Assembly (NCBI RefSeq): GCF_050320075.1
Contig: NZ_CP190018.1
Origin: Escherichia coli
Lineage (GTDB): Bacteria; Pseudomonadota; Gammaproteobacteria; Enterobacterales; Enterobacteriaceae
Direction: 5' to 3' (one strand)
Length of the DNA stretch: 64,000 bases
The notes below the pieces were generated by a model. It saw only the letters and a list, made by a program, of their open reading frames with translations. It was not told where the DNA came from and made no database searches. This document shows, piece after piece, positions 16,745 through 19,016 of this stretch (position 1 is the first letter of the stretch; every line of letters starts with the position of its first letter). Both the position numbers and the translations under genes were made by a program.

Positions 16745-19016
16745 GGAAAACTCCCCAGTGTTGCAGCGATGCCAGTGCCTGCTGTTCGAGTTGTTGATGA
16801 TGTGCAATGGCTTGCGGTGGACAATGCAACGGCATTTGCAGTGCCGAAACGGGAAGTTGCGCCAGTTGATAATGCTCAAACACCTGATGCGCCAGCGTCC
16901 CGCGTTCTCGTGGTGGTAGCCAGGCCATCGCCGCGCGTAAATCGGGCAGGGCGTTAATAAAATCGTCGTTACTCAGTTGATTTAAATGACTACTGAAACC
17001 GGCGATAAATGCCGGCTGACAGGCCAGTTGATGGCGGGCCAGCGCCAGCAAACCGTGCAGCGCTTCGCCGGATTGTGCCGGGGATAATTGCGCCAGCATT
17101 GTCAGCGCCGCTTCGGCACTGGCGTTGGGATGTTCCAGACGCATTAGTGCGCCAAGAGCCGCGCCGCGATCCAGCGCCGGGGCATGAATCGCCTGACTGC
17201 GGCGCTCCAGTAAGGCTACCGCCGCAGAAAGCGAAACGCCGGGTAAATTAACGCCGCTATGTAGATCGCGCAGGATATGGCAAAGCGCCTGCCAGCTATG
17301 CAGGTGAGCGTGAAACTCCTTTTCCTCCGGTTTGCCGTTGGATTCACACAGCCAGAGTGTGCGATCGATAGCCGCGCATAACGTCGTCTGCAATATCTGC
17401 GCGCCTTGCATACCGCTGATTTCATCTAACCGCCATAAGGCATATAGCACTTCCAGCGCCTGGCCCATTTCGGCAAATTGATTTTCCTGGGCGATTAATA
17501 ATGTAAGTTGCTCCAGTAATTGTTGACTGAAAGACGCCAGACCCGCTAACGCCGCCTGGCTAAGACATGTGGTGATGATGCTGATTCCACCCGCGTCCAG
17601 CATATCGGCTTCTAATTTATGGCGTGCGGCTTCCTGGAGTGTGGCACCAAAGCAGGCGGCCTCAATCAATGCCGCATGCTGGCTAAGCGGGCGGGTTAAT
17701 TTCCAGCATTCTTCACCGTTGCCTGCAAGTGACAGTGTACTTCCCTGCTGGCGCACAACCCCTGGGATCTCCAGTATTGCCAACCGATGTAACACCTGAC
17801 TTTGCGCCAGTCCATCGGGGGTAAAGCGATTTAAGGTAAGCTCCGCCGGAAGAGAGATTCCGGTACGTTCCAGTTCGCAGGTGACATCTTTTGGCAGAGG
17901 CGGTTGTGGCGTAGAAGGGGCAAGTTTACCGAATCCGTCACCCGCTAATGTGTCTATCAACGTTAGCAGAATCGGATCGGTATCGGGATGAATAACGCCG
18001 CGATAGCTCCACGGCAACGGCGCGTTCAAGGCTTCTTTAATCAGCGAGCCTGCTATGGCATCCAGCCAGTCAGTGCGTAACGGTAGTGTATGACCGCGCA
18101 ACTGTGCCAGCGCCATCGCATGCAGATGAGCGGCAGCCATATCAGCGGTAGAAGCGGGCAATTTGTGCTGGCGCAAACGGGTAAGGATAGTTTTTAGCAG
18201 TTGTTCACCGGCCTGCTGTAGGCCCCACTGCCAGCACCAGTTTTGCCAGACCGGGGCAGGCATACCAGAAAGGTATCCTGCCAGCACATCAAGGCGCTTT
18301 TCACTGTAGGGGGTGAGATAACAACCTGTAACGGCATCTGCCAGCTAGGGCAATTCCGGCGTGTTAATTTCCTGCGTGTATTCGCGCCACATCTTTGCCA
18401 GTGCCGGAGCATGCCAGCCGCCGCAGACGACTAACACGTCGCCATTGTTTTGCTGCATCGCCCATCCAATCCAGCGGGCCATAAAGGCTTCGCGCTGACG
18501 ATTGAGGGCATCTCCGGGGGAATCGCCCCGCAGTTGTGCAAAATAGTGCGCCAGCGCAGAGGGTAATGCAGTTTGCTGGCTTTCATCTTCGAACAAGTGA
18601 TCCCACAGGGTGTCGCTGTTATCCATGCGGGTGGCACGCAGCAGTAAGGTCTGGCTGTCATCTTGCGTATCGGGTGATTCGTCTTCTTCTTCACTCTGCG
18701 CCCAGCAAGGCAAATCGATGAAGTAAGTTTGTGCCTGAATACGACGTGCGGCTTGTAGCGCCTGCCACTCCGGCGAAAATTCAGCAAATGGCGTCCAGGC
18801 ACCACGCCCGGGGGCTGCACCGTCCTGATACTGGCAATAACTGTAAATAGCTACCGGAAGCTGGTGGGCTAAAAACAGTTCGTCTACCCGGTCATTAAAA
18901 TCAGCCGGGCCTTCAATCAACACGTATCGTGGCCGCTGGCTTTCGATTAACGATTTCACCAGCCGGGCGCAGGCCGGACTATGATGCCGGATGCCGACAA
19001 TTAACGGCTCGCTCAT
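16737..19016 (-). pseudogene. yehM: YehM homolog interrupted by an in-frame amber (TAG) codon
   Basis: ORFs 16737..18287 and 18345..19184 are in the same frame. They are separated only by TAG (plus-strand cta at 18345-18347). Read as one frame from MSEPLIVG the product is 759 aa, the length I recall for YehM. Confidence 0.75.

What the first reader, a model, noticed from the sequence alone, without database searches (positions are those of the whole stretch)
18345..18347. In-frame amber codon inside yehM
The two yehM ORF fragments are in one frame, separated by a single TAG (…TPELP*LADAVTG…). The total is exactly 759 codons from MSEPLIVG. This is either a nonsense mutation or would be read through in an amber-suppressor host. 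Together with the yehL frameshift, the ATPase operon looks decayed while the WGR paralogs are intact, the reverse of the K-12 state as I recall it.
Basis: partly seen in the sequence, partly recalled or inferred. Interest (0 to 1): 0.5.

Follow-up and report, generated by a model that had tools for sequence, protein, structure and literature searches.

The report
Inherited amber stop inactivating yehM
A single C-to-A change turned serine codon 224 of the E. coli gene yehM into a stop codon; the same broken copy is found in 214 independently sequenced genomes and is already flagged as a pseudogene in RefSeq, so it is a real but ordinary inherited gene loss.

Summary
On the minus strand, window 18347..18345 reads TAG, in frame at codon 224 of the 759-codon yehM (19016..16737).

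- **Ancestral codon:** At least 4146 complete E. coli genomes carry TCG.
- **Not an error:** the TAG allele occurs with identical flanks in 214 of 5426 complete genomes, and RefSeq already labels it "pseudo, internal stop".
- **Effect on the protein:** the stop leaves about 28% of the DUF5682 domain.
- **Link to yehL:** the yehL "frameshift" is an 11-bp deletion found in 215 genomes, so the two lesions travel together. No suppressor tRNA could rescue that deletion.
- **Spread by recombination:** the doubly broken haplotype lies on a 25.1-kb tract (window 7127..32250) that is identical to ST38 genomes. It also occurs inside a tract of at least 160 kb of ST38-like DNA in strains with a K-12-like backbone.
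- **Recurrent decay of the locus:** O157:H7 carries a separate yehM amber at codon 510 (302 genomes). The K-12-type strain has a broken molR and a yehQ amber at codon 615. Other strains have yehM frameshifts or deletions.
- **No clean anticorrelation:** O157:H7 has both modules broken, and several strains have everything intact.

Verdict: an ordinary, already annotated pseudogene of low interest.

The parts
18345..18347 (-). In-frame amber codon (TAG) at yehM codon 224. The ancestral codon is TCG (Ser), changed by C->A at 18346.
   Evidence: The TAG 55-mer is in 214 of 5426 genomes; the TCG 55-mer is in at least 4146.
16737..19016 (-). yehM pseudogene (DUF5682 family): 759 codons including the amber.
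   Evidence: PGAP labels the identical sequence 'internal stop'. Pfam DUF5682 covers residues 20-715 of the intact orthologue.
18345..19016 (-). The only reading frame left from the native start: 223 codons plus TAG, ending ...TPELP.
16737..18344 (-). Untranslated C-terminal remnant of yehM (codons 225-759), still free of further lesions. Its last 8 nt overlap the yehP start.
19027..20104 (-). yehL pseudogene (MoxR/AAA_5-type ATPase). An 11-bp deletion (TCAAGTATGGC in the K-12-type copy) has its junction between 19750 and 19749. The frame shifts after codon 118 and reaches a stop about 33 codons later, between Walker A (GEPGTAKS) and the rest of the ATPase.
   Evidence: The deletion junction is in 215 genomes. 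PGAP labels it 'frameshifted'.
15608..16744 (-). yehP (vWA domain), an intact ORF of 378 aa. Its start overlaps the end of yehM, so its translation is probably coupled to yehM.
13611..15611 (-). yehQ (SWIM zinc finger), an intact ORF of 666 aa. The K-12-type copy has an amber at codon 615.
20680..21000 (-). yehK, intact (106 aa).
21061..24693 (-). yehI (DUF4132), intact (1210 aa).
24703..28497 (-). WGR + DUF4132 gene (molR-like), intact (1264 aa). The molR-like gene at the same position next to yehI in the K-12-type strain is a pseudogene.
28510..32307 (-). A third tandem DUF4132 paralogue, intact (1265 aa), with no counterpart in the K-12-type strain.
7127..32250 (.). A 25.1-kb tract identical, apart from one mismatch at 20720, to ST38 strain NMBU_W05E18 and to M217. 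The flanks on both sides are 1-4% diverged. This tract carries both lesions.

Best explanation
This is an inherited loss-of-function allele. A C->A transversion changed yehM codon 224 from TCG (Ser) to TAG.

**Consequences (inferred).** Release factor 1 should end translation there, giving a 223-residue fragment that lacks about 72% of the DUF5682 domain. Immediately upstream, an 11-bp deletion frameshifts the AAA+ ATPase gene yehL after codon 118. Two things follow from the layout: the yehM stop overlaps the yehP start, and about 1.6 kb of yehM mRNA would be left untranslated. Together these probably also lower yehP and yehQ expression through lost translational coupling and Rho-dependent polarity, so the whole yehLMPQ module is likely inactive even though yehP and yehQ remain intact ORFs.

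**History (shown).** The two lesions form one haplotype that is fixed in ST38-type genomes and has been carried by homologous recombination into other backgrounds. The window's own genome holds it on a 25.1-kb tract. M217, which has a K-12-like backbone, holds it inside a tract of at least 160 kb; the ST167 strains SCEC020007 and AR_0150 also carry the TAG allele.

**Cause (inferred).** The most likely cause is weak selection on a locus that H-NS silences in E. coli K-12 and that has decayed independently in several other E. coli lineages.
For: **Sequence**
- TAG is in frame at codon 224, and the K-12-type orthologue has TCG.
- All ten other alleles read in register carry a sense codon there: TCG in nine and TTA in ST2747.

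**Not an artefact**
- The TAG 55-mer, designed so that every 28-nt seed spans the SNP, is found in 214 of 5426 complete genomes from many laboratories, hosts and years.
- TCG is found in at least 4146 genomes.
- The roughly 970 genomes not accounted for are explained by nearby polymorphisms that break the seeds: CD306 and M160133 still have TCG.

**Annotation and domain**
- PGAP labels yehM 'internal stop' and yehL 'frameshifted' in M217, NMBU_W05E18 and U1.
- DUF5682 spans residues 20-715.

**Linked lesion**
- The yehL lesion is an 11-bp deletion, and its junction is present in 215 genomes.

**Recent loss of a constrained gene**
- Pairwise dN/dS for yehM is 0.10-0.14 across E. coli, including comparisons with this allele.
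- There are no further lesions downstream of the stop.

**Spread by recombination**
- The window is identical to ST38 strain NMBU_W05E18 only over 7127..32250.
- M217 is 99.994% identical to NMBU_W05E18 over 69.8 kb.
- M217's gyrB-dgo region rounds to 100.0% identity with K-12-type laboratory strains.
- Against the K-12-type strain, M217 switches from 0 mismatches to 1-9% divergence at M217 position 1,630,110, inside atoC.
- ST assignments come from PMC7311804 (ST38) and from PMC7193042 and PMC6392093 (ST167).

**Recurrent decay and silencing**
- O157:H7 carries Q510am in 302 genomes.
- ST2747 has a yehM frameshift and O103 WL1467 a yehM deletion.
- The K-12-type strain has a molR pseudogene and yehQ E615am.
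- Shigella sonnei lineages 2 and 3 have deleted yehM and yehL (PMC12795559).
Against: - No expression or protein data are available, so the polarity on yehP and yehQ and the fate of the 223-residue fragment are inferred, not shown.
- yehP and yehQ are still intact. That fits a recent lesion, but it would also fit some residual function.
- The source genome's full tRNA set could not be examined. The window contains no tRNA gene, and only 60 of the 158 genomes carrying the supE allele were listed.
- Whether the loss was neutral or selected is not resolved.
Confidence: 0.9

Rival explanations
1. The amber codon is read through by a host or prophage suppressor tRNA, or by leaky termination, so full-length YehM is still made.
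For: The codon is UAG, the stop most readily suppressed. A serine-inserting suppressor of the supD type would restore the wild-type protein exactly, because the ancestral codon is TCG. From general knowledge, the preceding codon is Pro (CCC) and the next base is C, a context associated with slower termination.
Against: - The stop is not conserved: at least 4146 genomes have TCG.
- The window has no tRNA gene.
- The supE (glnV CUA) allele occurs in 158 genomes. Nearly all of the 60 listed are recognisable K-12 laboratory strains or transconjugants, and none of them appears among the 60 TAG carriers listed.
- The linked 11-bp deletion removes the partner ATPase YehL and cannot be suppressed.
- Background read-through in E. 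coli is typically well below 1% (general knowledge).
Confidence: 0.03
2. The gene now works as two pieces: the 223-residue N-terminal fragment, plus a C-terminal fragment restarted at an internal start codon.
For: In-frame GTG and ATG codons lie 20 and 30 codons after the stop. The ATG is preceded by AGGA about 11 nt upstream. The downstream frame is still open.
Against: - The same internal codons are present in intact alleles, so nothing has been adapted for restarting.
- The Shine-Dalgarno spacing is poor.
- DUF5682 is a single Pfam family that spans the break.
- No genome in the sample annotates two genes here; PGAP calls one pseudogene.
- The open downstream frame is expected for a recent lesion, since the haplotype is essentially invariant.
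Confidence: 0.05
3. The TAG is a sequencing or assembly error.
For: None found. It is a single-base difference, which is the kind of change an error could produce.
Against: The identical 55-mer is present in 214 complete genomes from different laboratories, platforms, hosts and countries. Three fetched genomes are 100% identical across 19.7 kb around it.
Confidence: 0.01
4. The loss was selected rather than neutral: inactivating YehLMPQ (a MoxR-type ATPase, a vWA protein and a SWIM protein, possibly a costly or self-harming conflict system) gave an advantage. That would explain why dead alleles are fixed in successful lineages and spread between them.
For: - Independent yehM ambers are fixed in two epidemic groups: 214 genomes of the ST38-type haplotype and 302 mostly O157:H7 genomes.
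- There are further independent yehM lesions and deletions.
- Two lesions hit the same module in one haplotype.
- The dead haplotype is found in at least three genomic backgrounds.
Against: - The transfer into M217 spans at least 160 kb, which fits hitch-hiking.
- Many lineages keep all genes intact, and dN/dS of 0.10-0.14 shows the gene is normally maintained.
- None of the six proteins matches a PADLOC defence model.
- H-NS silencing makes neutral decay a sufficient explanation.
- No rate test against other genes was done.
Confidence: 0.15

Closest known systems
RefSeq/PGAP pseudogene annotation of yehM ('DUF5682 family protein, internal stop') in E. coli M217, NMBU_W05E18 and U1
   Same: It is the same sequence: the yeh tract is 100% identical apart from one base, with the same TAG at codon 224 and the same neighbouring yehL 'frameshifted' call.
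   Different: Nothing differs at the locus. The window's genome differs from these strains only outside 7127..32250.
O157:H7 yehM amber allele (codon 510, CAG->TAG)
   Same: It is the same gene and the same kind of lesion: a single-base change to TAG, fixed in a clonal pathogen lineage and annotated 'internal stop'.
   Different: It is an independent event at a different codon and on a different allele. yehL is intact there and the molR-like gene is frameshifted.
Lesions in this locus in the K-12-type strain gw25: molR pseudogene and yehQ amber at codon 615
   Same: It is the same gene cluster, again decaying by frameshift and amber mutations. PMC3950696 notes that molR is 'disrupted in K12'.
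   Different: Different genes are hit. In the K-12-type strain the ATPase and DUF5682 genes are intact, while the WGR/DUF4132 gene and the SWIM gene are broken.
Classical suppressible amber mutations of laboratory genetics (supD, supE, supF hosts)
   Same: It is a UAG nonsense codon in a coding sequence that a matching suppressor tRNA could in principle read. A serine-inserting suppressor would restore the original residue.
   Different: It occurs in natural isolates. The supE allele was seen only in K-12-type laboratory strains. Nothing suggests the codon is maintained for regulated read-through.
MoxR-type AAA+ ATPase plus vWA-protein pairs (for example RavA-ViaA; comparison from general knowledge)
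   Same: yehL encodes an AAA_5/MoxR-like ATPase: it gives weak NCBIfam hits to GvpN and MadB, and phmmer hits to midasin AAA domains in the PDB. The ATPase gene and the vWA gene yehP lie in the same gene cluster.
   Different: The cluster also has DUF5682 and SWIM proteins and neighbouring WGR/DUF4132 paralogues. No function has been published in the searched library. Here the ATPase and its DUF5682 neighbour are both dead.

Membership tests
Pseudogene by nonsense mutation | An in-frame stop at a position that is a sense codon in orthologues. | tested here: met
   TAG here against TCG in at least 4146 genomes, with a sense codon in all ten other alleles read in register: TCG in nine and TTA in ST2747.
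Pseudogene by nonsense mutation | Full-length, same-frame homology to the intact gene on both sides of the stop. | tested here: met
   A gapless 2280-nt alignment with 96.7% amino-acid identity to the K-12-type YehM.
Pseudogene by nonsense mutation | The lesion is reproducible, not a sequencing error. | tested here: met
   214 complete genomes carry the identical 55-mer.
Pseudogene by nonsense mutation | The truncation removes an essential part of the protein. | tested here: met
   The DUF5682 match spans residues 20-715 and the stop is at 224. That the lost part is essential for function is assumed, not shown.
Pseudogene by nonsense mutation | No full-length product is made in the cell. | not testable with these tools
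   This needs proteomics or a Western blot.
Programmed stop-codon read-through or a suppressor-dependent gene | The stop codon is conserved among orthologues. | tested here: not met
   TAG is confined to one haplotype: 214 genomes with an identical 55-mer, of which 211 records are >=99% identical across yehM. Every other allele examined has a sense codon.
Programmed stop-codon read-through or a suppressor-dependent gene | A cognate suppressor tRNA is present in the host. | tested here: inconclusive
   There is no tRNA gene in the window. The supE allele is in 158 genomes, and nearly all of the 60 listed are recognisable K-12-type laboratory strains or transconjugants. The source genome's full tRNA set was not available.
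DUF5682 family (Pfam PF18934) | A significant match to the family HMM over most of its length. | tested here: met
   The K-12-type orthologue matches with i-Evalue 3.1e-98 over model positions 1-695 of 727. The window copy is 96.7% identical to it.
Known anti-phage defence systems (PADLOC-DB 2.0) | A match of the component proteins to any PADLOC model. | tested here: not met
   YehL, YehM, YehP, YehQ, YehI and YehK gave 0 families at E <= 0.01.
MoxR AAA+ / vWA chaperone-like pair | A MoxR-class AAA+ ATPase encoded together with a vWA-domain protein. | tested here: inconclusive
   YehL gives only weak, sub-threshold hits to GvpN and MadB and to midasin AAA domains. The vWA assignment for YehP rests on the PGAP name and one weak cobaltochelatase hit. 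No Pfam scan of YehL or YehP was run.

The most novel reading that the evidence does not exclude
Loss of the YehLMPQ module is convergent and selected. Independent amber, frameshift and deletion events in yehM and yehL have become fixed in several epidemic lineages (ST38-type, O157:H7, Shigella sonnei), and the dead ST38-type haplotype has been imported into other backgrounds. This could mean that the uncharacterised ATPase/vWA/SWIM system, with its WGR-DUF4132 partners, is a costly conflict or surveillance system whose inactivation benefits host-adapted clones.
Probability: 0.12. Interest if true: 0.45.

Novelty: already known. Interest (0 to 1): 0.15.

Why it matters
It matters little on its own. 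It is one more lineage-specific pseudogene in a gene of unknown function, and public annotation already marks it. Three modest uses remain:

- **Lineage marker:** the TAG together with the 11-bp deletion is a clean marker for an ST38-type haplotype, and for recombinant tracts derived from it in other clones such as those with an ST167-type backbone.
- **Candidate for study:** the yeh/molR cluster shows repeated, independent decay across E. coli. That makes it a reasonable place to ask whether an uncharacterised ATPase/vWA/SWIM system is dispensable or counter-selected.
- **Natural mutants:** strains with intact, half-broken and differently broken versions are natural mutants for anyone who wants to find the cluster's function.

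Tried and rejected
- **Function searches that found nothing.** PADLOC gave no hits for six locus proteins. NCBIfam gave only weak sub-threshold hits. The PDB sequence search found nothing for YehM. Literature searches for yehLMPQ, DUF5682, DUF4132 and MoxR+SWIM+vWA+WGR found no functional study.
- **A flawed query.** My first query for the yehL deletion junction (55 nt, 27+28) let one flank seed on its own and mixed intact with deleted alleles. I replaced it with a 27+27 design.
- **A wrong assumption, corrected.** I first took the window to be strain M217, because 20 kb matched with one mismatch. The full comparison showed identity only over 7127..32250. I then described the backgrounds separately.
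- **An off-target fetch.** The fetch meant to recover the K-12-type strain's dnaA-gyrB region missed it. The backbone question was answered by a similarity search instead.
- **Rejected: sequencing error**.
- **Rejected: programmed read-through**, because the stop is not conserved.
- **Rejected: a general reciprocal rule between molR and yehLM**, because O157:H7 and the fully intact strains contradict it.
- **Not attempted.** I did not look for the right-hand end of the ST38-like tract in M217, run a full tRNA scan of any carrier genome, or predict the YehM structure.

Full report
**1. The observation**

The reported coordinates are right. Plus-strand 18345..18347 is CTA, which is TAG on the minus strand. 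The gene runs on the minus strand from the ATG at 19016 (MSEPLIVG...) to the TGA ending at 16737. It has 759 codons, with one internal stop at codon 224 in the context ...TPELP*LADAVTG....

Both fragments align without gaps and in one frame to intact 759-residue YehM proteins. Identity to the K-12-type copy is 96.7%. This is a disrupted gene, not two ORFs that happen to be in phase.

**2. The change**

The K-12-type strain gw25 has TCG (Ser) at this codon, so the event was C->A at window 18346 in the gene's sense. Of the ten other alleles I could read in register, nine have TCG and one divergent allele (ST2747) has TTA. The residue is therefore not invariant, and a stop at this codon was seen only on the TAG haplotype.

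**3. Is it real?**

I used a 55-nt query with the variable base at position 28. Every 28-nt megablast seed must then span that base.

- The TAG version matches 214 of 5426 complete E. coli genomes, all at 100% over the 55 nt. They come from human, animal, water and food isolates in many countries.
- The TCG version matches 4146 genomes.
- The roughly 970 remaining genomes are explained by nearby polymorphisms that break every seed. CD306 and M160133, for example, still have TCG.

A sequencing error is excluded. RefSeq/PGAP already annotates the identical sequence as yehM 'DUF5682 family protein, internal stop'.

**4. What the stop does**

Pfam DUF5682 covers residues 20-715 of the intact protein, so the 223-residue product keeps about 28% of the single recognisable domain. 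No relative of YehM has a solved structure.

The yehM stop overlaps the yehP start (CCATGTCTGA). The amber would leave about 1.6 kb of untranslated mRNA upstream of that junction. I infer, but cannot show, that translational coupling is lost and that Rho-dependent polarity acts on yehP and yehQ. Both are still intact ORFs, of 378 and 666 aa.

**5. The neighbouring lesion**

The yehL 'frameshift' is an 11-bp deletion (TCAAGTATGGC in the K-12-type copy). Its junction lies between window 19750 and 19749. It shifts the frame after codon 118, after the Walker A motif GEPGTAKS, and a stop follows about 33 codons later.

A 27+27-nt junction query finds the deletion in 215 genomes, against 214 for the amber, so the two lesions form one haplotype. 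No suppressor tRNA can repair a frameshift, which undercuts any idea that the operon still works in a suppressor host.

**6. The suppressor question**

The window has no tRNA gene. As a control, a SNP-centred query for the supE allele (glnV with anticodon CUA) recovered 158 genomes. The 60 listed include C600, DH5alpha, DH1, JM109, XL1-Blue, HB101, J53 and their transconjugants. None of them appears among the 60 TAG carriers listed. This is not an exhaustive exclusion for the source genome.

**7. How old, and under what constraint**

Pairwise dN/dS for yehM across E. coli is 0.10-0.14, including comparisons that involve this allele. The gene has therefore been under purifying selection for most of its history. 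The frame downstream of the stop has no further damage, and carriers are essentially identical across the tract. The lesion is recent relative to the divergence between alleles.

**8. Where the haplotype sits**

I first took the window for strain M217. That was wrong, and the backgrounds are as follows.

- **The window's own genome.** It is identical to M217 and to ST38 strain NMBU_W05E18 only over 7127..32250 (25.1 kb, one mismatch at 20720). The flanks are 1-4% diverged. The flank at 41.4-51.3 kb matches at 100.0% identity in only seven genomes, three of which (YZLc1-3, Br_167_kylling and PRO_A-1407-6W-A_ESBL) are listed TAG carriers. It is 99.5% identical to a group that includes the ST405 strain NMBU-W10C18.
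- **ST38.** NMBU_W05E18 is ST38, phylogroup D (PMC7311804).
- **K-12-like backbones.** M217 is 99.994% identical to NMBU_W05E18 over 69.8 kb. Yet its gyrB-dgo region rounds to 100.0% identity with K-12-type laboratory strains. Against the K-12-type strain, M217 switches from 0 mismatches to 1-9% divergence at M217 position 1,630,110, inside atoC. M217 therefore carries at least 160 kb of ST38-like DNA in a K-12-like backbone.
- **ST167.** The TAG carriers SCEC020007 and AR_0150 are published ST167 strains (PMC7193042 and PMC6392093).

The dead haplotype thus occurs in at least three genomic backgrounds and has moved by homologous recombination. It most simply travelled as a passenger.

**9. 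The rest of the locus, and the proposed anticorrelation**

| Strain or lineage | State of the locus |
|---|---|
| This window | yehK, yehI, the WGR/DUF4132 gene and a third DUF4132 paralogue are all intact; the third paralogue has no K-12-type counterpart |
| K-12-type strain gw25 | molR-like gene 'frameshifted; internal stop'; yehQ has an amber at codon 615 (GAG->TAG); yehL and yehM intact |
| O157:H7 | molR-like gene frameshifted; independent yehM amber at codon 510 (CAG->TAG), present in 302 genomes |
| ST2747 | yehM frameshift |
| O103 WL1467 | yehM frameshifted; 76 bp shorter than intact alleles |
| CD306, M160133 | lesion only in yehK or its equivalent |
| BL21, E166, 118UI, GPEC859, VTB97432v | every gene intact |
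| Shigella sonnei lineages 2 and 3 | yehM and yehL deleted (PMC12795559) |

The locus decays repeatedly and in different places, and both modules can be broken or intact together.

In K-12, yehL and yehM are expressed only when H-NS and StpA are removed (PMC3686432). That makes weak selection a sufficient explanation for the decay.

**10. What the system is**

The function is unknown. YehL looks like a MoxR/AAA_5-type ATPase, but only through weak hits. PGAP names YehP a vWA protein and YehQ a SWIM zinc-finger protein. None of the six proteins matches a PADLOC defence model, and I found no functional paper. Any link to conflict systems is a lead from memory, not a result.

**11. Verdict**

The feature is a lineage-fixed pseudogene, spread by recombination and already annotated as a pseudogene in RefSeq. 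Interest is low. The only reading with some novelty is that loss of yehLM is convergent and selected. The data do not exclude it, but hitch-hiking and H-NS silencing explain them more simply.

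Noticed in passing
window 7127..32250: This 25.1-kb tract (part of yehY/yehX through the three DUF4132 genes) is identical, apart from one base at 20720, to ST38 strain NMBU_W05E18 and to M217. Both flanks are 1-4% diverged. It is a clean recombination block with sharp edges at about 7126 and 32251.
   Followed up: yes
L023/L011/L007/L008 (E. coli M217, NZ_AP019189.1, 1,630,110 to at least 1,789,955): M217 has a K-12-like backbone: its gyrB-dgo region rounds to 100.0% identity with K-12-type laboratory strains. It nevertheless carries at least 160 kb of ST38-like DNA, 99.994% identical to NMBU_W05E18 over 69.8 kb. The left junction is inside atoC. The right end was not located.
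   Followed up: partly
L018 9005-11284 (E. coli O157:H7 BB24-1): There is an independent yehM amber at codon 510 (CAG->TAG), present in 302 complete genomes, mostly O157:H7. The molR-like gene is also frameshifted in this strain and yehR is split by an IS66-family element.
   Followed up: yes
L002 12410-14410 (K-12-type strain gw25): yehQ in this K-12-type strain carries an amber at codon 615 of 666 (GAG->TAG). supE laboratory strains would partly read through it. This is a third independent amber in the same operon.
   Followed up: partly
window 28510..32307 (-): A third tandem DUF4132 paralogue (1265 aa, intact) lies between metG and the WGR/DUF4132 gene and has no counterpart in the K-12-type strain. 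The yehI-molR stretch is also unusually diverged from that strain, at 93.5% identity against about 97-98% for its neighbours.
   Followed up: partly
window 60350..64000: The window leaves the K-12, M217 and ST38 alignment here. It runs into what looks by eye like a P2-like prophage: an integrase-like ORF at 60429..61442 (-) followed by small ORFs resembling repressor and Cox genes. This is the position beside yegR where the K-12-type strain has the ogrK P2 remnant. No family search was run.
   Followed up: no
window 40346..41321 and 51390..52090: These two short stretches do not align to M217 or NMBU_W05E18 (near rcnB/yehA and near fbaB/gatY). They are local replacements or indels and were not examined.
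   Followed up: no
L011 27950-29927 (M217, outside the window): cirA, the catecholate siderophore receptor gene, is annotated as frameshifted in M217. From general knowledge, loss of cirA has been linked to reduced cefiderocol susceptibility.
   Followed up: no
L026 10830-11655 (NMBU_W05E18): rcnA, the nickel/cobalt efflux gene, is annotated as frameshifted in this ST38 strain but is intact in M217, even though the two are almost identical across the region.
   Followed up: no
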